A DNA stretch of 64,000 nt, from the NCBI RefSeq assembly GCF_009914755.1, contig NC_060940.1. One strand, 5' to 3'. The notes beneath the pieces were generated by a model. The model had not been told where the DNA came from. It worked only from the letters and a program-made list of their open reading frames with translations, and made no database searches. The DNA comes from the human T2T-CHM13v2.0 reference genome, Homo sapiens. The translations under genes were made by a program, and so were the position numbers. Below, piece by piece: positions 12,430 through 30,313 of this stretch. The stretch's first letter is position 1; each line of letters begins with the position of its first letter.

Positions 12430-12808
<379 letters not shown>

Positions 12809-13914
12809 CTAAGGTCCCCACCTGGACCCCTGGGTCTCTGTCAAAGCCTGAGCCCTAACTCCAAACCTCCATCCTTTCTGGCAGGCCTGGGTCATGATAC
12901 CTCCTTCCTCTGCCTCTCCCTGGCTCAGGCTCACATCTCCTCCTACCTGGCCCCAAAGCACTAACCTCTCACTGGATGTTTCTCAAAGTATGGTCCCAGC
13001 CTCTACCCCGTCATCAGAATCATCTGAGAAAGCAGGTGCTTCTCAATAAAGCAGATTCTTCCATAACCATTGCTTGGTCATAAAAGAAAAAAGAAAGAAA
13101 GAAAGAAAAAAAAAACAACACAGAACCAAATTCCCAGCTCCCGGTACTCTTGAATCAGAAAGTCTGGGGTAGGACATTTTTCATAGTTGGCCCCAGGTGC
13201 TTTGGAAGTGTCCCTGCTTTGATTGCTTTCCCTGTCTCCAATGCTTGCTCAGCCTCAGAGTAATCTTTCTGAAGTCACTCCCCTGCTCAATCACCTTCAA
13301 TGGCTCCCCATTGCCTACAGCTTAGTTTCCTAAAGTCAGGCCCCAACTTCTCTAGTTTTATCTTCTGCATTAAGGATGCTGGGCTCCAGATTAGCTGAAG
13401 TCCCACCACTCTCCTGTATGCCACACTTTATTCCCTCTACTGGGATTGCCCCACCTCATCACCAGTTTGAGACCTCAGGGATCTCAAATCCAAAGGCCTG
13501 CCCAGCCAGGGTGATGATGTAAACAAATGAAGAGGCAGGTGCCACCTGCCTTCAGGTGCCAGCAGCTGCCCAGACTGTCCTCACAAGCACAGTGTGGGCC
13601 CATGACAGCCAAGTCCACCCAGTTTTCAAGAGAAGCCAGATTTTTCCATGTAAAGCTACCTGATTTTTAAATGTTGGCAATCAATTCTAATTTTTAAAAT
13701 CACTCCATGGCCCAAACAAAGACACATGTGGGCCAGCTGGGAGCCAGGACCCCCAGCTCAGGACCCCTGGCTAATTCCTCTCCTCCTGCAACCCAACACC
13801 GCAAGCCCAGGGCTATTCAGTCCACCCACTTTTAAAACCTAAACCCTTCTTTTAGCTTTATCCTAAGCAATAATATCAATGCAATCACAGGTTTGATGTG
13901 CTCATTTACACTCT

Positions 13915-14129
13915 TTTAATGTTAATGAAAACATTTGTTGCTGCTCATTGGTGTCCCCAAGCCTTGGAAGGAGAGAGTGTGGCCAGGCCTAGGGAGAACC
14001 TCTTCTGGGAAAAACTGTATCCTGTCGAGGTGCTGACGGTGCCAGGTACCACACTGGGGGCTGTGCACGCGTCCTCTCAAAGAGATGCTCAATACTGAGT
14101 CCTCCATCCATGGGGCTTTTTAATTTATT
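13915..14129 (-). terminator. CNGB1: Candidate GARP2 polyadenylation signals (AATAAA 14124-14129, ATTAAA 13915-13920)
   Basis: Plus-strand tttatt and tttaat downstream of the GARP2 stop; an Alu monomer (about 14140-14265) lies in this 3'UTR. Confidence 0.55.
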
Positions 14130-14559
14130 AATTTAAAAAAGGTTTTTTAGAGACAGGGTCTCACTGTGTTGCCCACGGTGGTCTCGAACTTCGGGGCTCA
14201 AGCAATCCTCCTGCCTCAGCCTCCCAAAGTGCTGGGATTACAGGCGTGAGCCACCACGCCCGGCTATGGGCCTTTTCCACAGCCCTCTGGGGGTAAGTCC
14301 TGCTGTCTAGCCTAAATCTTGCAGGCTGCCCATGGCTGGCCTTCCCCTTGTTCTGGTCTGGGAGGCTCTGGGGCTGGTGCAGGTGACTCTGGCTCCCCTT
14401 GTCCTGCCTGGGAGTGTGTGGAGAGGGAGGGGTTCGCTGTTCAAATAGGGTGGGGTGTCAGTGGCCACCTCCCCCGGGAAGGTCTTCTCTTCAGGGCATC
14501 CTTCTTTCCTTCCATCCATGTGTCCATCTGAGCTCTCCCAGATTCCCTTCTCCCTTATT

Positions 14560-14585
14560 TCAGAGACCTCCAGCTCCCATCACCC
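14560..14585 (-). CDS. CNGB1: CNGB1 GARP2-specific terminal exon, coding part (RVMGAGGL*); gives 299-aa GARP2
   Basis: tttgtttcag|gg gtg atg gga gct gga ggt ctc tga; 874+26=900 nt. Confidence 0.92.
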
Positions 14586-16593: not shown

Positions 16594-17666
16594 CTGCATG
16601 GAGAGAGAAAAAAGGGAAAATCCTGCCACGGCCTCTTCACCAGCCTCCCCGTTTCAGCCACACCTTCTAGCACGTGACCTTGACCCACCTCTCCGGGCCT
16701 TAGTTGTCCCATGGGATGGAGAAGAGAGTCCCTGCTGTGCCCAGGGCCAATGAAGGATTTGAGGTGGGGGGAGGGGGCTTTGAGAGCTCGAGCCTTGGCT
16801 CAAGTGAAGCAAGGTGGGGGTGACCCCAGACAGCCACAGCAGCGGCACCTGCTCAGAGGAGCCAGGCCGAGCTCTTGAGTGACACAAAGGCCCAGGACCT
16901 GGCCAGGCCTTCCTCTCTCTGGGGCCTAGACAGCTTTGTTTACGGAACTCTTTACCTCCATTCTCACAGCCCTGGGTATGAGAATGCAGGTAAAGAGTTC
17001 TGTAAACAACTGACCATTGGTCAGCTGGGACAACTGCAGTTCTGAGAGGGCCAGAGCTGAGGCCACACAGCCAGGAGAGAGATTAGGCCTCCCACCTCCC
17101 AGTTCCAGGTGCTTCTATAAAGACGTCCAATTGCACCCAAGAAAAAAGGGCCAGGTTCCCGGTTCTTGAGGAAGGAAAAGAAGGGGTGACAGAGCTCATG
17201 AGCGCTCCCCCTGGCCACTCATGTTGGAGCCCTAGGCTATCAGGAATGCACATAGGGCTGCCGGCTCCTGTGAGCCTTACTTCTTCCCAGAATCTAGGTA
17301 TCTCTCATTTCTGGACCTTTGCACATGCTTGGAGGCCACCTCCACTGGGAAGCCCTTCTTGATGCTCCCAGGAGGCTCCACTTCTGTGCCCCATATCCTC
17401 TCTGCTCCCCCACGGAAGCACCTCCCCCGCTGACTGTGAACTCCTGGCAGGTGGGGCTGGGCCAGCATGTCTCAGGGAGTGGGTGGAATGAACGTGGGCC
17501 ATGCAGACAGGAAGGCTGGGGGAGCTGGGCTTCTGCCACAGGGTCCCTTCTTCCTACTGTGCCTTCACACCCCAGGGACACAGGCCAACCATCCTCCTCC
17601 TTACCCAAGTTCCCAAGACCCCTCCCACCACCACCAGGGCCACCACTCCATGAGCCCAGCACTGAC

Positions 17667-17742: not shown

Positions 17743-18587
17743 CTGCAGGTGGGAGAGAGTGTGCGGTGTCCAGGTGGGAAGGGTCATGGGTAAACTGAGG
17801 CTGGAGTCAGCTCGTTCCCAAGGCAGAAAACAAGCCTGCCAAAAGGCAGAGCCTGCCAGGAGCCAGAGCCCAGGTCTCCAGCCCTGAAGACCATTCTCCC
17901 CCCTCTCCACCCTCCCTCGGTGCTCTGGCTATTGTTCAGGCCCTAGCAGGTAGCTCGGCCTCCCCCCACCCTCCCACCCGTTCTCGGAAGGGAGTGCACT
18001 TTGGGCATCTCACACATGGAATGTGGCAATACCTGTCCCGATTTCCTTCCCTCCTTCCCTTCTTTTTTCTCCCATCTTTCTTTCTTGACTTGGTGGCCCA
18101 GGCTGATGTGATCATATCTCACTCCTGTCTCAGCCCCCTGAGTAGTTGGGACTACAGGCACATGCCATCATGCCCAGCTTTTTTTTTTTTTTTTTTTTAA
18201 TTTTTTGTAGAGATGGAGTCTTTCTATATTGCCCAGGCTGGTCTCGAACTCCTGCTGCCATGGCTTCCCAAAGTACCGGGATTACAAGCATGAGCCACTG
18301 CACCCAGCCTGTATCCCATTTTAAATATATGTATCCTTTGGCCCAGGAACTCCATTTCCACTTATTTATCCTCCAGATTTACTTGTGCGTGAACCCAATG
18401 ATGCATGCACGGGTTATTGACTGTGGCAAAAGAGTGAAAACAAATGTAAATGTCCACTGAGTGGTTAAATAAAAACTGGTGCATCCATTTAATGCAGCTG
18501 TTCAAGAAAGAATGCAGTAAGACCTGTGTGAATAAAAGCACTTCTAAGACACATTTTTCAGGTTAAGAAAAAAAAAAAAGAGGAAGC

Positions 18588-18923
<336 letters not shown>

Positions 18924-20558: not shown

Positions 20559-21057
20559 TCATACTCTGCTGTCACAGTCTGAAAACATTTTAAACAAACT
20601 TTTAAGGGGCCTGCATTTGCATTTTGCCCTGGGCCCCACAAATTATGTGGCTGGTCCTAAGATCAAGCATTGGATCCCAAATCCATCTGGCCTCTGGGAA
20701 GCTCCACTCTCTTCAGAGAAGCACCATGTTCCCAGGACAACCGGTTCCCCCAAGTATGGCCCAAAAGAAGGCTGGTGAGTCCTCTAGGTGCCCTCATCCT
20801 AAATTGCTTTAGTGGTCCCAGGAATCAGCTGCATATGTCTCAGAAGGAAGTAGAGGACCAAAAGACACAGAGAGAGAGCTGCAGCAAGGAATGAATGAAT
20901 GAATGAATGAATGAATGAATGAATGAGTGAATGAAGTGTGTGATTATATATACGTGTGTTCATTCATGCATTCATTTGTCCCATGTGTGCTGAGTCCTCA
21001 CTCTGTGGCAGGTGCTGTGCTGGGCACCAAGGGTTCAGTAGTGACCAGGACAAAAGC

Positions 21058-21187
21058 CCCTGCCCTCAAGGAGCCAGCAGTCTAATGAATGAATGAGTGA
21101 AGGAACGAATGAATGGGGTGAATGGAAATGAATGCATGTCTCTGGATTTCCAGCAGAAACTACAAACTGGGAGCTTCAAGCTTACTT
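21058..21187 (+). repeat. Copy 1 of a ~130-bp direct repeat (copy 2 at 23046-23201)
   Basis: Shared ccctgccctcaagg..cagtctaatgaatg..ctggatttccagcagaaa..ctgggagcttca.gcttactt. Confidence 0.9.
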
Positions 21188-21821
21188 TGGAAGTCTACAG
21201 TGTCCTGAAAACTTCTTGACTAAAAATTGAGGGTTTTACATAAAAAGCTAGATTTCTAGCTTCTCTGGAAAACCTGGAGGATCTGGCCACACAGGGCCTA
21301 AACGCCAGCAAGGAAGAGGCAGTTGAAACCAAGCAGGGCCCCTTCTCGGAGCTCCCTGGCTCCCCTCTTCGCCACAGTCCCCCTGCCAGTCTGCCACCCT
21401 TACTGATGGGGCAGCCACCCCTCCCTGAGTCAGCTCTGAGAACTCAGACACTGAGGCCAGCCCAGGCACCCTGATGTCCCCCACAGTGATCCAAGCCCTG
21501 CTTCCAGGCTCCACACGGAGCCTACCTACATGAAGCCCACCTGTGAGGAGCTCATCCCTGCCCCTCCCTATTCTCAGAGGGTGGCCCCACCCAGGGACCT
21601 CTCAGTCATCCCTGGGAACACCCAGGGACATCCCACCACAAACCATGAGCAGCACACGGTCCACTGTCCCCATTCTATGGCTGGAAACAGGCCCAGAAGA
21701 GACGGGAGGCATGTCCAAGGTCACACCCTGAGGTGGTAACAGACCCTGCTCCTGAAACCAAGGACCTGTTCCTCCCACCCACACATACAGACAACAGTGA
21801 CACTCAGGGATAGGGACTCAC

Positions 21822-21867
21822 CTAGTGTCTTGGGCCTCAAGGGCCTCATTGGGTTCATCTGTGCACC
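21822..21867 (-). CDS. CNGB1: CNGB1 exon 7 (CTDEPNEALEAQDT), c.413-458
   Basis: ccctgcag|ggtgc ... cactag|gtgagt. Confidence 0.95.
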
Positions 21868-22098
21868 CTGCAGGGTCAGAAAATACAGAAAGGCAGTCAG
21901 CAGCGGGAGACCTGCCCCAGCCCCCTGGGCAGCCTGGAGTGGGCACCGAGAGCTCAGCTCAACCCCAGGTTCAAAGCAGGGTCAGTCAGGTGAGAAGATC
22001 CAGCCTGGGCAGAGGCTCCCAAGGGGCAGGGCCCATCCCAGCAGCCCCTCAGCCCCTCAGCCCTGCTGCTGAAAAGCCATCCTGCCCCTTGTTCTTAC

Positions 22099-22129
22099 CT
22101 GTGTCCCCAGTGCTGCCATGCCCCAGGAT
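22099..22129 (-). CDS. CNGB1: CNGB1 exon 6 ([10 protein letters not shown]), c.382-412
   Basis: ctggcag|atcctg ... cacag|gtaaga. Confidence 0.95.
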
Positions 22130-22230
22130 CTGCCAGGGACAGACAGACAGACATGGGCAGGGAGCCCAAGGGCAGCCTCCCCACAGCCCCTCTCCAACCC
22201 GGCCCCTTCAGCCTCCAGCCCCAGCAGTAC

Positions 22231-22321
22231 CTGAGCCGGGTCCTCCGTGATGCTGTGAACAGGCTGCGGGATCACCTTCTCTACGCCCTTCATGAGCCAG
22301 GTCAGTACCCTGCGGCTGGGA
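22231..22321 (-). CDS. CNGB1: CNGB1 exon 5 (GARP repeat R2 [17 protein letters not shown]), c.291-381
   Basis: catcgcag|tccc ... gctcag|gtactg. Confidence 0.95.
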
Positions 22322-22366
22322 CTGCGATGGACAGAGACACCAGCCCGCCCTCAACTTCCCCTAGCT

Positions 22367-22438
22367 CAATGAGGCCCTCGAGGCCCAAGACACTAGGTGA
22401 GTCTCTGTCCCTGAGTGTCACTGTCATCTGTATGTGTG
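22367..22438 (+). repeat. Inverted copy of 21780-21851 (exon 7 3' part + donor + start of intron 7)
   Basis: 67/72 identity to the reverse complement, no gaps. Confidence 0.95.
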
Positions 22439-23045
22439 TGGTGTGGTTATTGGAAAGTACCTACATGTACCACTGGCCCAAGGCCAGTCCAGTGTCCAAA
22501 AGAACTTGGCTTGAATCCTAAACCACTGTCTCCCCACTGTGAGACTTCAGACCCATCACCTCCCCAAAAAGCTCCACGTCCTTCTCTGAAAAATAGGGGA
22601 TGCTGATGCTTCATGAGGCCAGGCAGACCGGGTGCCATTCAGAGCCCACCCTCCATGGGATGCTTAGGACAGAGCAGCTGACTTCCCTCTCCTCCTGCCT
22701 CCTGCTGTCCTGCTCTGAGCACACATCGTGCTCCCAAAGGGCCAAGGTTTGCTGCAGGTGTAATGCTGTGGCACAGGCTGAGCAGCCTAAATGTGAAGGT
22801 CACAGCCTCCCTGCCTGAGGCCAGCCCAGCCCCAGCCCTGCTCAGGCCCCAAGCACCATGGTCTGAAATGTCTGAGCCAACTGGGAGATTCCATGCAAAA
22901 GCCTGGATTTCTGGCTTTTCTGAGAAAAGCAGAAGCTCTGACCCCATTGGGCCTGCATCTCACCCAAGCACTGAGAAACGTCCGGCCCCCTGTACAGGGG
23001 CGCTCACTATGCAGCTCTGACCCACTGTTTCTTTTGGTCACATTG

Positions 23046-23201
23046 CCCTGCCCTCAAGGGGCTAACAGTCTAATGAATGAATGAGTGAATTAACAGTCTA
23101 ATGAATGAATGAGTGAAGGAATGAATGAATAGGGTGAATGGAGATGAATGCATGACTGGATTTCCAGCAGAAATTACAAACTGGGAGCTTCAGGCTTACT
23201 T
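23046..23201 (+). repeat. Copy 2 of the ~130-bp direct repeat, with an internal 28-bp tandem duplication
   Basis: See 21058-21187; taacagtctaatgaatgaatgagtgaa at 23063 and 23091. Confidence 0.9.
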
Positions 23202-23286
23202 AGGGAGAGCCCGCCCTCCACCTGAAGCTCACTTCAGCCAATTCCCAGGATGTCCCAGGGCTTTCCCCAGAATGACAGCAGAGCTA

Positions 23287-23481
<195 letters not shown>

Positions 23482-23743
23482 TCAGATCTAGGGCCTCAGA
23501 CAGGCCCATTTCTACCCTGCTTGGGGAGATCAAGTCAGGGGAGAGGAGAGAGACCCCCAGGGGTCAGAAAGCCAGGCTCCAGCTCAGCTCAACTGAAGTC
23601 TCTGGGAGCCCACCCTTAGCTTCTCTGAGTCTCAGTTTCCTCATCTGTGAAATGGGTCCGCCAGCCTCGTGGGCTCTGCGGCTCCGAGGGGAGAATGCGG
23701 GCCCCCCTGCCATGCCAGCCTGGGCTTCAGCACTCGCACTCAC

Positions 23744-23801: not shown

Positions 23802-24309
23802 CTAGAGGGTTCGAACAGGATCATGTAAGTCCTAGGTGAGACCAGCCTGGTTTGGACAGGGGCAGCCTGATTCTCCCTCAAGGGATCCCTGCCCCACAAA
23901 AGACCTGAACGACTCTTTCCTCAGGATCATCTCTGTAAATCCTGTTGGCCTTACCTTCCACCTGGGATACTCCCTTCCTCCTAGCCCCAGGGACCCCTCA
24001 TCTGGGGCTGGGGGCCCTCACAGCCCCCAAGGTCCAAGGTGGCCTCCAAGCCTCCCAGGCCTACAACATCCCCAGGAGGCTGCCCCACTTCAGTGGCCTG
24101 AGAGGAGAAAGGACCATTTAGAGATAGTTATGAAGCCTTGGGGCTGGCTGAGGGGAAGAGGGAGGTGAGAGGAGCCCACGCCCCTCATCCTCTGCCAGTG
24201 CTCTCCCTCTCCTTCTGGCCCAAACTTTCCATTCCTCCCTAGTAGCTAGGTGGAGTTTGGTCTCTGCCATCTGCCTTTCACCTGCCTCTGCAGCCACACC
24301 TCCTGCTAC

Positions 24310-25255
24310 TACGTGCACTTATGTGTATGTACAAACAAATATACATGCACATACATACACAGACACATAAATGTGTGCATACTCTCATGCACATACATAC
24401 ATGAACAGACATACAATGTGAGCATATATACACATACATATGCATGTATACAATGACACACAAATACCAACATGCATATATACACACATGCACAGACACA
24501 AAAATAAGTGCATGTGCACACACGTACAGGCAAAAACATATGTACATATACATGTGTATGTACATATGCATGCATGCCCCAACACATATATGTGCATACA
24601 GTCATATGCAAACGTGCATATACACACATGCATTCATACAGATACATACATGCGTATAACTGCCTGTGTACAGACACACAACATGCACATATGCATAGGT
24701 ACATTGCAGATGTATACAGGTGCAGAAATATGAGTATACACACATATACTCAGTCACACACATGTGCATATTTGCACATACACAGAAGCATGTCCATATG
24801 GACATGCATATACACACAGATTTCTGCACCTAAATATACATGAACATCCATGCACAGACACAAAATATGTATATATACACATGTGGAGACAGGCAAATAT
24901 GTGTATATACACATACACATGACACATTCACAGATGCACAAACATGCAGATACATAGAAATACATGAGTACACTCACATACTCAGAAATATGTAGACACA
25001 TACACACACATACACACTAGCATGTCACACAAGCACATGGAACCACAGACATACTAATACATGTGCACATAAACATATGTGCAAACACATATACATGCAT
25101 TCATGTACATATACATGTTCACATACATTGACATGTATACCCATTGTGCAAATACATGTGTGCACACACAGACATACCAAGGGCACACTACACACATATA
25201 TGTACATATACGTGTATATACATGCAACATATACACATGCATACGCACACCCTAT
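24310..25255. repeat. ~950-bp degenerate (CA/TA)n low-complexity tract
   Basis: Continuous acacat/atacat/catgca units. Confidence 0.9.
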
Positions 25256-25719: not shown

Positions 25720-26200
25720 GAAATACTCCACAGTGTGGTCCATGGATCTGTGCCAGTCTGCAAACTGTTACTGGTCCATGATGATTAAGCAGTTTGCACC
25801 AGAATGTTTATCAATGCACTGCTTCCTTCATTGAGAAAGTCTTGGTACAAAATAAATAGCAACTAAACTAATCAGTGTACTTAGCTACAGAGTAGATTTA
25901 CATTCTGGTACAAACTGTTTAATCATCATGGACTAGTAATAAACAGTTCATGGACTGGCTCCTGTGAGTAGCTCTGTTCTGAACTCTAGAGGTTGGCAAA
26001 ATACGACCTGTGGGCCAAATCTAGGCTATTGCTTGTTTTTATAAATAAAATTTTATTGGAACCCAGCTATGCTCATTCATTCATGCATTACCTATAACTG
26101 TTTTCACACTATAATGGCAGAGTTGAGTAATTAGCAGAGATAGCATCACTCACAAAGCCTAAAATATTTACTATCTATCCTTTTACAGAAAATGTTAGCC
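25720..26200. mobile_element. hAT-Charlie-type DNA transposon remnants (including a MER58-like piece at about 25988-26200)
   Basis: tactccacagtgtggtcc...; ggttggcaaaatacgacctgtgggccaaatc..aaaatatttactatct..ttttacagaaaa. Confidence 0.6.
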
Positions 26201-26595: not shown

Positions 26596-26677
26596 TCACA
26601 GTAGCTCCCGCCACTTATGGGCCACTCTTATGAGTTGTACATTTCCTTTTCCTTCATCAACTTTAAAAACATTTCGA

Positions 26678-28866
<2,189 letters not shown>

Positions 28867-30313
28867 GAAATAAAATGCTTATAGTGCTATATTTTAAAAA
28901 AAGAAAGAAAGAAAAAGATAAAATGCCAGGTAAGACTTTTTTCATGATATACTGTGTTATTTCAGTCCTACCTTAAGTACAGGTTGTTTCTGGTTGATTT
29001 CTCCTTGGGGAATGGGGAGCCCCAGCCCTTATGACTGAACCCCTGCAGGATGGCCTGGCCAGTGCGCAGCGTGCAGGTCAGTGTGTGCTAACCCCTAGCC
29101 CTAGATGTGTTCTTGCCCCACATGAGTGTGCCCCACCCCTCTCCCAGCCATGGGCAACCCGGGCTTTGGCAGAGGGTCTGTATGCCCCTTTCTGCCAGGG
29201 ACCCTGGCCCCAGCTGAAGAGGGCAGCCCAGGCCCAGGATCCTTGCCCCCAAGCCCAGCTCCCCAGAGCCCACGGCTGTGCTGCCTGTCCTCTACTTACA
29301 GCCCTGACCTCTGTTCCCACTCTGGCATCAGCAGCCCAGCCTCTCCCACGAGAGGCTGTGGTGGGAACACAGCTCTAAGTGTCAGATCCCTGGCTCAGCC
29401 TCCCAAAAAATGAACTTGGGCCAGACATGACCCCTCTGGTCTTCCATTTCCCTGAAGGTGGGGGCACAGACACAATGTTTTCCCAGGTCGGGACTGCCAG
29501 AGCTCACATGTTGGGATAGCAGATTTCACTGACCCCAGCCAGCCCCAGGCAGCCCCGAGAGCCAGGGCTGAGCTAAGTGCATTCTACCCATGATCATACT
29601 CATCCTCGCTCTCACCACCACGCCCCGCCCAGCCCCTGCACTCAGTAAAATAAGAATTTTCATTATGTAGCACAGAAAGGTCAACAGAATCGCCTGAAGC
29701 AGCACAGCCAGCAGTGGCCAACTTGAGTTTACACTCAGGTCTGCCCGATTCCAGCTGCCCCACATGTATTCCCAGGTAGTCGTGGCATTTGCCGAGTGTT
29801 GGCCTCTTCCGCGGGCCAGGCCTGTAGACCCTTCCCAGCAGGCAGCAATTCTCGCTTGCATTTCTAAACCTTCTGGAAATGACTAAGGAAGCCTCCCCGA
29901 TCCCCCATTTTTCTTTTTCCTCCTAAATGAGAATTTTTGCAGGTCCCTCCCATCTTTCACCCGTGTCCCTGCTGACTGCACTTTGATGAGGGAGGCTCAG
30001 GTGGGAAGGGGGACCCACGAGTGGCAGCTCGGGGAGCCATGGTGTTGCACCACCAGCATTTCCAGAGTCTTCTGGAGAGCTAGTGAAAATATAGATTCCT
30101 AGGTCCCCCAAGTCCTCCTGGGGGACCTAGGAATTTGCATTGTACAAGCTGTCCTGAAAATTCTGATGCCCGCTAAAGTCCAAGCTCCACCAGATAGAGG
30201 GAAGCCACAGGTTTCCCACCGTGCCAGTTTGGTCCTACCTAAATGCCTTTCTAGAGGGAGAACATGGGGATCCCCTCGGGGTCCCACCGAGCCTCCACCT
30301 CACCCTGAGTTAC

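What the first reader, a model, noticed from the sequence alone, without database searches (positions are those of the whole stretch)
21780..22438. Intronic antisense copy of exon 7 + donor can form a 72-bp pre-mRNA stem around an in-frame GARP module
Seen: 22367-22438 (intron 4, ending 45 nt before exon 5) is the reverse complement of 21780-21851, i.e. the last 30 nt of exon 7, its GT donor and 42 nt of intron 7, at 67/72 identity. In the CNGB1 transcript three of the five differences become G-U wobbles and two become A-C mismatches, so 70/72 positions pair. The 515-nt loop contains exons 5 and 6 and the exon-7 acceptor. Exons 5+6+7 total 168 nt and begin and end in phase 2. Inference: the stem would mask the exon-7 donor and promote in-frame skipping of exons 5-7, deleting GARP repeat R2, and/or be an ADAR substrate that recodes exon 7. 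It is a non-Alu, gene-derived cis-antisense switch.
Basis: partly seen in the sequence, partly recalled or inferred. Interest (0 to 1): 0.82.

Follow-up and report, generated by a model that had tools for sequence, protein, structure and literature searches.

The report
Inverted exon-7 copy inside CNGB1 intron
An intron of the human rod-photoreceptor channel gene CNGB1 holds a backwards copy of the end of a later exon and its splice site, so the unspliced RNA should fold into a long double-stranded stem, but whether that changes splicing or RNA editing is untested.

Summary
Window 22367-22438 (CNGB1 intron 4) is the reverse complement of 21780-21851, which is the last 30 nt of exon 7, its GT donor and 42 nt of intron 7. 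Identity is 67/72, and the match extends to 77 columns with one indel. All five differences are transitions, giving 3 G·U and 2 A·C in the RNA.

The 3.1-Gb genome holds only these two copies, so it is not a dispersed repeat. Published hg19 variant positions give the same intron 4 and 7 lengths, so it is not an assembly artefact.

The intron-4 arm abuts a 26-nt perfect copy of intron-1 sequence, which also occurs only twice in the genome. I therefore read the arm as part of a ~103-nt chimeric templated insertion.

Folding predicts a -147 kcal/mol duplex with mean pair probability 0.95 in a 2.2-kb context. It buries the exon-7 donor. Exons 5-7 (168 nt) are in frame and encode GARP repeat R2.

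No RNA data or other species could be reached here. Exon skipping and editing remain inference, and there is no sign of selection on pairing.

Best reading: an old by-product of template switching that is probably an ADAR substrate and a partial donor mask, not a shown switch.

The parts
21776..21851 (-). Arm B, the parent copy. It holds the last 30 nt of CNGB1 exon 7 (21822-21851, c.429-458), the GT donor (21820-21821) and the first 42-46 nt of intron 7.
   Evidence: Donor context TAG|gtgagt. The exon encodes part of the GARP region.
22367..22443 (-). Arm A, an inverted copy of arm B in intron 4 (c.291-46 to c.291-122). In the CNGB1 RNA it is antisense to the exon-7 end and donor.
   Evidence: 67/72 identity, or 92.2% over 77 columns. 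It is the only other copy in the 3.1-Gb genome.
22444..22469 (+). A 26-nt perfect direct copy of intron-1 sequence 27192-27217, directly abutting arm A. Together with arm A it makes a ~103-nt chimeric insert.
   Evidence: Exact 26-nt match. The 26-mer occurs at only these 2 places in the genome at <=2 mismatches, with 0 reverse hits and 0 control hits.
27192..27217 (+). Intron-1 partner of the 26-mer, probably its source.
   Evidence: Its 221-nt context is otherwise unique apart from one weak 52-nt match elsewhere. The direction of copying is not settled.
21852..22366 (-). The 515-nt loop closed by the stem (64% G+C). It holds exon 5 (22231-22321), exon 6 (22099-22129), introns 5 and 6, the exon-7 acceptor, the first 16 nt of exon 7 and the last 45 nt of intron 4.
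   Evidence: Hub exon table.

Best explanation
What it is (shown). CNGB1 intron 4 carries a ~103-nt chimeric insert. It is a reverse-complement copy of the exon 7 / intron 7 junction (77 nt) joined end to end with a 26-nt direct copy of intron-1 sequence from 4.7 kb away.

How it arose (inferred). It came from one replication or repair template-switching event (a templated insertion) tens of millions of years ago. It was not built by selection.

What it does to the RNA (predicted by folding, not observed). While intron 4 is still present, the CNGB1 pre-mRNA can close a 72-77 bp near-perfect duplex over a 515-nt loop. The exon-7 donor sits inside the helix.

Consequences (inferred from what is known of ADAR and U1).
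- The duplex forms in only a fraction of nascent transcripts, because normal CNGB1 mRNA includes exon 7.
- Where it forms, it is a substrate for A-to-I editing of both arms. The best-placed sites are c.457 (UAG context, position -2 of the donor, Arg153 to Gly), c.458+11 (A opposite C) and c.291-73.
- It competes with U1 at the exon-7 donor, giving a minor share of exon-7 skipping, intron-7 retention or exon 5-7 skipping.
- I regard it as a tolerated by-product with side effects, not a demonstrated regulatory switch.
For: - The repeat and its limits are established.
- Arm A is unique in the genome and is not a transposon.
- The abutting 26-mer is perfect and occurs only twice in the genome.
- A reverse-complement copy of nearby sequence made in a single event is the signature of template-switch mutation as described in PMC8794818 (abstract read).
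- Duplex energy is -147.3 kcal/mol, against shuffled arms with mean -35.6 and best -55.4. Each arm alone folds at about -20.
- The stem is in the MFE and the centroid of the 701-nt fold, z -7.55, with 0 of 20 shuffles as stable.
- Mean pair probability is 0.948 over the 72 positions, and 69 of 72 are paired in the MFE of a 2171-nt context.
- The donor's P(unpaired) is 0.0007 with intron 4 present and 0.41 without it. Arm A is about 35% unpaired before arm B is made, with a 7-nt open stretch where pairing could start.
- The sequence contexts of the adenosines in both arms are tabulated.
- hg19 has the same intron lengths.
- A human-retina editome preprint names CNGB1 among the heavily edited photoreceptor genes (10.1101/2023.06.22.543349, passage read). 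It gives no sites, so this shows only that ADAR acts on this pre-mRNA.
- There is no sign of selection on pairing: 5/5 transitions has P 0.13, and 3/5 pair-preserving changes has P 0.21.
Against: - No RNA-level data of any kind were reachable, so duplex formation, editing and mis-splicing are all predictions.
- The equilibrium folding (0.95 paired) cannot be taken literally. If it held, exon 7 could hardly be spliced, yet the selected transcript NM_001297.5 includes exon 7. Kinetics, helicases or proteins must therefore limit the stem, possibly to zero.
- The heavy editing of CNGB1 reported in retina could come entirely from its intronic Alu pairs (inverted Alu-like pairs are seen).
- A recoding catalogue holds no CNGB1 site (PMC8897444, 0 of 3 supplementary files). 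As I recall it rests on GTEx tissues, which lack retina.
- The single-event origin is inferred. The junction between the two copied pieces shows no clear microhomology, and without other species the ancestral state is unknown.
Confidence: 0.5

Rival explanations
1. One reading: a selected cis-antisense splicing switch. The stem loops out exons 5-7 and masks the exon-7 donor. Exon 4 then joins exon 8, giving an in-frame GARP/CNGB1 isoform that lacks repeat R2 (56 residues).
For: - The geometry fits. The arms bracket exons 5-7 and the donor is inside the helix.
- Exons 5-7 total 168 nt, and their removal keeps the frame and removes R2.
- The R1-4 repeats are reported as the peripherin-2 / disc-rim binding region (10.1101/2020.10.01.322859, passages read), so a three-repeat isoform could differ in function.
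- A retina meta-analysis assigns 75.6% of CNGB1 expression to 25 unannotated isoforms out of 31 in total (PMC10111803 supplements). Their structures are not given.
Against: - None of the 3 RefSeq transcripts skips exons 5-7 (hub table).
- CNGB1 is never named in the main text of PMC10111803 (0 occurrences), which holds its Table 2 of 19 ORFs changed by exon skipping or novel exons.
- A masked donor more simply predicts loss of exon 7 alone (a frameshift) or retention of intron 7.
- There is no statistical sign that pairing was preserved by selection.
- The chimeric insert with an unrelated 26-mer looks like a mutational accident.
Confidence: 0.1
2. Inert in vivo. The duplex essentially never forms in rod nuclei because of co-transcriptional U1 binding, local folding of arm A, hnRNP coating or helicases. 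The insert is then a neutral fossil with no RNA-level effect.
For: - Exon 7 is constitutive in the selected transcript, and loss-of-function variants in exons 5-8 cause retinal dystrophy (table in PMC8218941). Strong masking cannot therefore be tolerated.
- Arm A is about 65% paired locally before arm B is transcribed.
- There is no evidence of selection on the arms.
Against: - A stabilisation of -147 kcal/mol over 72-77 bp with only a 515-nt loop.
- As I recall from the ADAR literature, inverted Alu pairs that are less similar and further apart are routinely edited in human pre-mRNA, so such duplexes do form in nuclei.
- ADAR is active on CNGB1 pre-mRNA in the retina.
Confidence: 0.3
3. A circular-RNA driver. 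The inverted repeat brings the exon-5 acceptor and a downstream donor together and promotes back-splicing of exons 5-7 (168 nt) or exons 5-6 (122 nt).
For: - The arms lie 45 nt upstream of the exon-5 acceptor and at the exon-7 donor.
- As I recall (Liang and Wilusz 2014, not read here), short inverted repeats of 30-40 nt are enough to drive circularisation in reporters.
Against: - The exon-7 donor lies inside the helix, so it is occluded rather than presented.
- A search for papers holding both CNGB1 and circRNA found 11, and none of the listed titles or abstract openings concerns a CNGB1 circle.
- The circles would be very small.
Confidence: 0.05

Closest known systems
Exon / intronic editing-complementary-sequence (ECS) duplexes that direct ADAR recoding, e.g. 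the GRIA2 R/G site next to a 5' splice site (recalled from the literature, not read here)
   Same: An intronic segment pairs with the end of a coding exon and its donor. An adenosine at position -2 of the donor sits in a UAG context, and editing it would turn an Arg codon into Gly.
   Different: - The partner lies in an upstream intron three exons away, with a 515-nt loop, instead of just downstream.
- The helix is far longer and more perfect (72-77 bp), which predicts promiscuous rather than site-selective editing.
- No editing has been observed, and conservation could not be tested.
Long-range pre-mRNA base pairing that loops out exons or masks splice sites, e.g. conserved complementary regions in human genes, or the MAPT exon 10 donor stem (recalled)
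   Same: Complementary segments in different introns bracket whole exons, and a donor lies inside a helix.
   Different: - No alternative isoform is tied to it.
- No co-variation or conservation is shown.
- It is far longer than typical regulatory stems.
- Its origin is a recent duplication rather than conserved complementarity.
Template-switch mutations / templated insertions that create reverse-complement repeats in one step (PMC8794818, abstract read; PMC5453318 and PMC9435742, search listing only)
   Same: A reverse-complement copy of nearby sequence creates a near-perfect stem at once. The insert is chimeric, with a second templated piece.
   Different: - From what I saw, the listed papers (PMC5453318, PMC9435742, PMC7954356) describe the events they study as short or short-range.
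- Here the inverted piece is 77 nt copied from about 0.5 kb away, with a second piece from 4.7 kb away.
- The ancestral state was not reconstructed.
Inverted Alu pairs in introns (ADAR substrates and circRNA drivers)
   Same: Intragenic inverted repeats within about 0.5-3 kb form dsRNA. Many such pairs lie in this window.
   Different: - It is not a transposon, with only 2 copies in the genome.
- It is shorter but more similar than any Alu-type pair in the window (92-93%, against under 90% for the other 36 pairs).
- One arm is coding sequence plus a splice donor.

Membership tests
ADAR exon-ECS editing duplex | An intronic segment forms a dsRNA helix of at least about 20 bp with exon sequence in the same pre-mRNA | tested here: met
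   72-77 bp, -147.3 kcal/mol. Mean pair probability 0.95. This is a prediction, not a structure-probing result.
ADAR exon-ECS editing duplex | A-to-I editing is observed, as A-to-G differences between RNA and DNA in the helix | not testable with these tools
   No RNA-seq access. PMC8897444 supplements: 0 of 3 files name CNGB1.
ADAR exon-ECS editing duplex | The complementary intronic element is conserved across species | not testable with these tools
   No primate or other mammalian genome is held. Within-genome divergence (K2P 0.075) suggests a lineage-specific element.
Splicing-regulatory long-range RNA structure | Complementary arms bracket regulated exons or include a splice site | tested here: met
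   The loop holds exons 5 and 6 and the exon-7 acceptor. The donor is inside the helix.
Splicing-regulatory long-range RNA structure | A matching alternative isoform exists (exon 4-8 or exon 6-8 junction, or intron 7 retention) | tested here: inconclusive
   It is not among the 3 RefSeq transcripts (hub table). CNGB1 is not named in the main text of PMC10111803, although that study counts 25 novel isoforms without giving structures. The Iso-Seq preprint mentions novel CNGB1 isoforms without structures.
Splicing-regulatory long-range RNA structure | Compensatory or co-varying substitutions keep the pairing | tested here: not met
   Only the two paralogous arms can be compared. Of 5 transitions, 3 give G·U and 2 give A·C mismatches (P 0.21 under neutrality). 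There are no double changes.
Inverted-repeat-driven circRNA locus | Both arms lie in the introns flanking the circularised exons and leave the splice sites free | tested here: not met
   The downstream arm covers the exon-7 donor itself.
Template-switch / templated-insertion mutation | A reverse-complement copy of nearby sequence from the same locus | tested here: met
   Arm A is an inverted copy of sequence 0.5 kb away and is unique in the genome. The abutting 26-mer is copied from 4.7 kb away.
Template-switch / templated-insertion mutation | A single event, shown by comparison with an outgroup lacking the insert | not testable with these tools
   No outgroup genomes are available.
Transposable-element inverted pair (Alu and the like) | The arms belong to a dispersed repeat family | tested here: not met
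   The genome search finds only the 2 local copies. Across the whole of intron 4, the only matches elsewhere in the genome are one 53-nt match at query 563-615 and short matches at query 735-840, the stretch around the AATGAATGAATGAGTG run.

The most novel reading that the evidence does not exclude
A lineage-specific accident of DNA replication gave the CNGB1 pre-mRNA its own built-in guide for ADAR. On this reading the intron-4 arm acts as an editing-complementary sequence that makes the end of exon 7 a retina-specific recoding site. The sites would be Arg153Gly at c.457, and possibly Asn, Glu, Gln, Asp or Thr codons at c.430-454. Editing at position -2 of the donor, or simple occlusion of the donor, would then couple editing to the use of exon 7. 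That would tune the output of GARP and the channel beta subunit, or produce an in-frame isoform lacking R2. It would be a datable example of a recoding or splicing element born in one step from a gene's own exon.
Probability: 0.2. Interest if true: 0.7.

Novelty: new member of a known kind. Interest (0 to 1): 0.5.

Why it matters
CNGB1 is a retinitis pigmentosa gene and a target of gene therapy. A 72-bp helix that buries a constitutive splice donor in its pre-mRNA would be a built-in brake on productive splicing and a likely ADAR substrate.

If it acts in rods, three things follow:
- It would define a deep-intronic stretch (c.291-46 to c.291-122) where variants could matter for diagnosis.
- It would suggest that an antisense oligonucleotide against the intronic arm could raise normal mRNA.
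- It would give a dated natural case of a structured RNA element created in one step by template switching from a gene's own exon.

If it is inert, it shows how far nuclear RNA folding departs from thermodynamic prediction. Either outcome can be settled with public retina RNA-seq and primate alignments.

Tried and rejected
- **Dispersed repeat or transposon origin: rejected.** The arm has 2 copies in the genome and the 26-mer has 2 copies.
- **Assembly artefact or a CHM13-private insertion: rejected.** The arms differ by 7%, and the intron lengths are identical in hg19.
- **A larger hidden duplication or inversion between 20700-22000 and 22300-23500: not found.** Sensitive blastn (word size 7) finds only the inverted 77-nt piece, the direct copy 21078-21193 / 23094-23207 and weak low-complexity hits. 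An exact-match scan adds only the 26-mer.
- **Microhomology at the junction of the two copied pieces: withdrawn.** I first noted 'TGG' (note 1). On inspection there is no clear microhomology.
- **Intron 1 as a transposon context, to fix the direction of copying: inconclusive**.
- **Known RNA families: none.** There are 5 matches at E <= 1, none reaches its gathering score and none overlaps the arms.
- **Selection for pairing: no signal**.
- **Literature.**
  - CNGB1 + RNA editing found 12 papers.
  - CNGB1 + circRNA found 11.
  - CNGB1 + GARP + alternative splicing + exon found 10.
  - CNGB1 + minigene found 25, of which 12 were listed.
  - CNGB1 + long-read + retina + isoforms found 14, of which 10 were listed.
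  - CNGB1 + inverted repeat found 1 paper, and the CNGB1 passages I read in it concern gene therapy.
  - Nothing I saw describes this repeat.
  - The one CNGB1 minigene paper I opened (PMC8303747) covers exons 8-10, exon 25 and the intron 23 / exon 24 region, not exons 4-8.
  - Farkas 2013 supplements: 0 of 6 files name CNGB1.
  - Gabay 2022 supplements: 0 of 3 files name CNGB1.
- **Comparative genomics:** no tool here holds primate or other mammalian genomes, so presence, age and co-variation across species could not be examined.

Full report
**1. The observation**

The repeat finder on 21000-23500 gives one strong inverted pair. Its arms are 21780-21851 and 22367-22438: 72 nt, 93% complementary, 515 nt apart. 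blastn extends the match by five columns with one indel to 21776-21851 / 22367-22443. That is 77 columns at 92.2%, with E 3.5e-20 in a 16-kb self-comparison and E 2e-22 in a smaller comparison.

CNGB1 lies on the minus strand. Against the hub's exon table:
- 21822-21851 is the last 30 nt of exon 7.
- 21820-21821 reads GT in the transcript. The donor context is TAG|gtgagt.
- 21780-21821 is the first 42 nt of intron 7.
- The other arm lies in intron 4 and ends 45 nt before exon 5.

The five substitutions are all transitions. In the CNGB1 RNA they become three G·U wobbles and two A·C mismatches (read from the printout; the A·C positions have pair probability 0). Exons 5, 6 and 7 are c.291-381, c.382-412 and c.413-458, which total 168 nt. 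Deleting them keeps the frame and removes 56 residues that include the second GARP repeat. Deleting exon 7 alone shifts the frame. Every factual element of the finding is therefore confirmed.

**2. Chance, repeat family or artefact?**

- A search of the window's own 3.1-Gb assembly with 21770-21860 finds two places only, the exon-7 locus and its inverted copy (2 of 2 candidates scored). The arms are therefore not a transposon family.
- By blastn, the 64-kb window holds 37 inverted pairs of >=50 nt with a loop <=3 kb. This is the only one at >=90% identity, and the only one touching an exon of a selected transcript. Three others touch alternative terminal exons.
- The 25 longest pairs listed by the repeat finder are 110-265 nt at 72-90%. 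Several coincide with the masked stretches of about 300 nt in the hub table. I take those for Alu-type repeats, although no tool named a family.
- An assembly artefact is unlikely, because the copies differ by 7%.
- The hg19 positions printed in the CNGB1 mutation review PMC8218941 are c.262 57998062, c.315 57996944, c.385 57996773, c.413-1 57996515 and c.522 57994756. They reproduce the window's spacing at one constant offset. hg19 therefore has introns 4 and 7 of identical length. This checks length, not sequence.

**3. What it is: a chimeric templated insertion**

Directly after the intron-4 arm, 22444-22469 is a perfect 26-nt direct copy of 27192-27217 in intron 1. Allowing up to two mismatches, this 26-mer occurs at exactly these two places in the genome, with no reverse hits and no control hits.

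Intron 4 thus holds a block of about 103 nt made of two parts. One is an inverted copy of sequence 0.5 kb away. The other, joined end to end, is a direct copy of sequence 4.7 kb away.

Exon 7 is coding sequence of the GARP region, so arm B is the parent and arm A the copy. For the 26-mer the direction is not settled.

A reverse-complement copy of nearby sequence made in one step, which creates a perfect stem at once, is what template-switch mutation produces (PMC8794818, abstract; related papers seen only in the listing). I infer such an origin.

The divergence of the arms is K2P 0.075, with a Poisson 95% range of 2-16%. Under neutral rates of 2.2e-9 to 0.5e-9 per site per year (rates recalled), that corresponds to roughly 17-75 million years. 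This would make the insert lineage-specific, probably primate, but no other mammalian genome was available to test it.

**4. What the RNA is predicted to do**

- The two arms pair with -147.3 kcal/mol. Two hundred shuffles of one arm give a mean of -35.6 and a best of -55.4. Each arm alone folds at about -20.
- In a 701-nt fold the stem is in both the MFE and the centroid. The z-score is -7.55, and 0 of 20 shuffles are as stable.
- In a 2171-nt context from exon 4 to 0.5 kb into intron 7, the mean pair probability of the 72 positions is 0.948, and 69 are paired in the MFE.
- The exon-7 donor (-3 to +7) has P(unpaired) 0.0007 when intron 4 is present and 0.41 when it has been removed.
- Before arm B is transcribed, arm A is about 35% unpaired, with a 7-nt open stretch.

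These are equilibrium predictions. They cannot hold literally in vivo, because the selected transcript NM_001297.5 includes exon 7 (hub table). Kinetics, proteins or helicases must limit the duplex.

**5. Likely consequences (inference)**

A 72-bp near-perfect nuclear duplex is a textbook ADAR substrate. The adenosine contexts are tabulated.
- In exon 7 the best-placed adenosine is c.457. It sits in a UAG context opposite U, at position -2 of the donor, and editing would change Arg153 AGG to GGG (Gly).
- c.458+11 is a UAU adenosine opposite C.
- c.291-83 is also opposite C.
- c.291-73 is in a UAG context.

Which contexts ADAR prefers is recalled knowledge.

A masked donor should lower U1 access. 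Under exon definition, the simplest outcome is skipping of exon 7 alone (frameshift) or retention of intron 7. The in-frame exon 5-7 skip needs an additional looping-out effect. The R1-4 repeats are reported to mediate peripherin-2 / disc-rim binding (10.1101/2020.10.01.322859, passages), so an isoform without R2 could matter if it exists.

**6. Evidence from the literature**

Nothing I could read describes this repeat.
That editing could be entirely from Alu pairs.
- The recoding catalogue PMC8897444 has no CNGB1 entry in its 3 supplementary files. As I recall, it rests on GTEx tissues, which lack retina.
- PMC10111803 counts 31 CNGB1 transcripts in human retina, 25 of them novel, carrying 75.6% of expression. 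The files give no structures. CNGB1 is never named in its main text, which holds its Table 2 of 19 full-length ORFs altered by exon skipping or novel exons.
- An Iso-Seq preprint mentions novel CNGB1 isoforms without detail.
- Farkas 2013 supplements do not name CNGB1 (0 of 6 files).
- The one CNGB1 minigene paper I opened, PMC8303747, covers exons 8-10, exon 25 and the intron 23 / exon 24 region, not exons 4-8. The other minigene papers were seen in the listing only.
- The search for CNGB1 with 'inverted repeat' found one review, whose CNGB1 passages concern gene therapy.

**7. Selection**

Only two sequences can be compared.
- Five of five differences being transitions has P about 0.13.
- Three of five being pair-preserving has P about 0.21 under a simple neutral expectation.

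There is no evidence that pairing has been maintained by selection.

**8. Verdict**

My estimates:
- Duplex forms, with editing and/or partial donor masking, in a minority of transcripts: 0.5.
- Inert in vivo: 0.3.
- Selected exon 5-7 skipping switch: 0.1.
- circRNA driver: 0.05.

It resembles exon-ECS editing duplexes and long-range splicing structures. It qualifies structurally, but the defining functional features could not be tested. I file it as a new member of a known kind. Interest is moderate (0.5), because the question can be settled quickly with public retina RNA-seq and primate alignments.

Noticed in passing
window 23046-23207 and 21058-21193: A second intron-4 / intron-7 duplicate. 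It is a direct (not inverted) copy of about 135-160 nt at 90-94% identity, 576 nt from the chimeric insert. The intron-4 copy has an internal 28-nt tandem duplication (23063-23089 / 23091-23117). Its divergence is similar to that of the inverted arms, so it may belong to the same complex event.
   Followed up: partly
window 12445-12635 and 14143-14266: Inverted pairs (74-111 nt, 77-84%) link intronic sequence to the alternative CNGB1 exon 13892-14585 listed under 'exons of other transcripts'.
   Followed up: no
window 18122-18328 and 18570-18881; 26662-28876: A cluster of mutually similar ~300-nt repeats lies in CNGB1 introns, coinciding in part with stretches masked in the hub table. One closely spaced inverted pair is at 18.1-18.9 kb. 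I take them for Alu-type repeats, though no family was named. They could account for the heavy CNGB1 editing reported in retina.
   Followed up: no
window 24295-25250: A diverged tandem-repeat tract (self-matches at about 62% identity with offsets of about 150-550 nt) lies in intron 2, just beyond the RefSeq enhancer 23842-24341.
   Followed up: no
window 16936-17009, 25752-25959, 30063-30165: Self-complementary (palindromic) stretches of 74, 208 and 103 nt at 86%, 68% and 75% identity lie in CNGB1 introns.
   Followed up: no
literature, PMC10111803 supplements: A human-retina meta-analysis assigns only 24.4% of CNGB1 expression to annotated transcripts. It lists five highly expressed novel isoforms (6.8-26% each) whose structures are not in the readable files.
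   Followed up: partly
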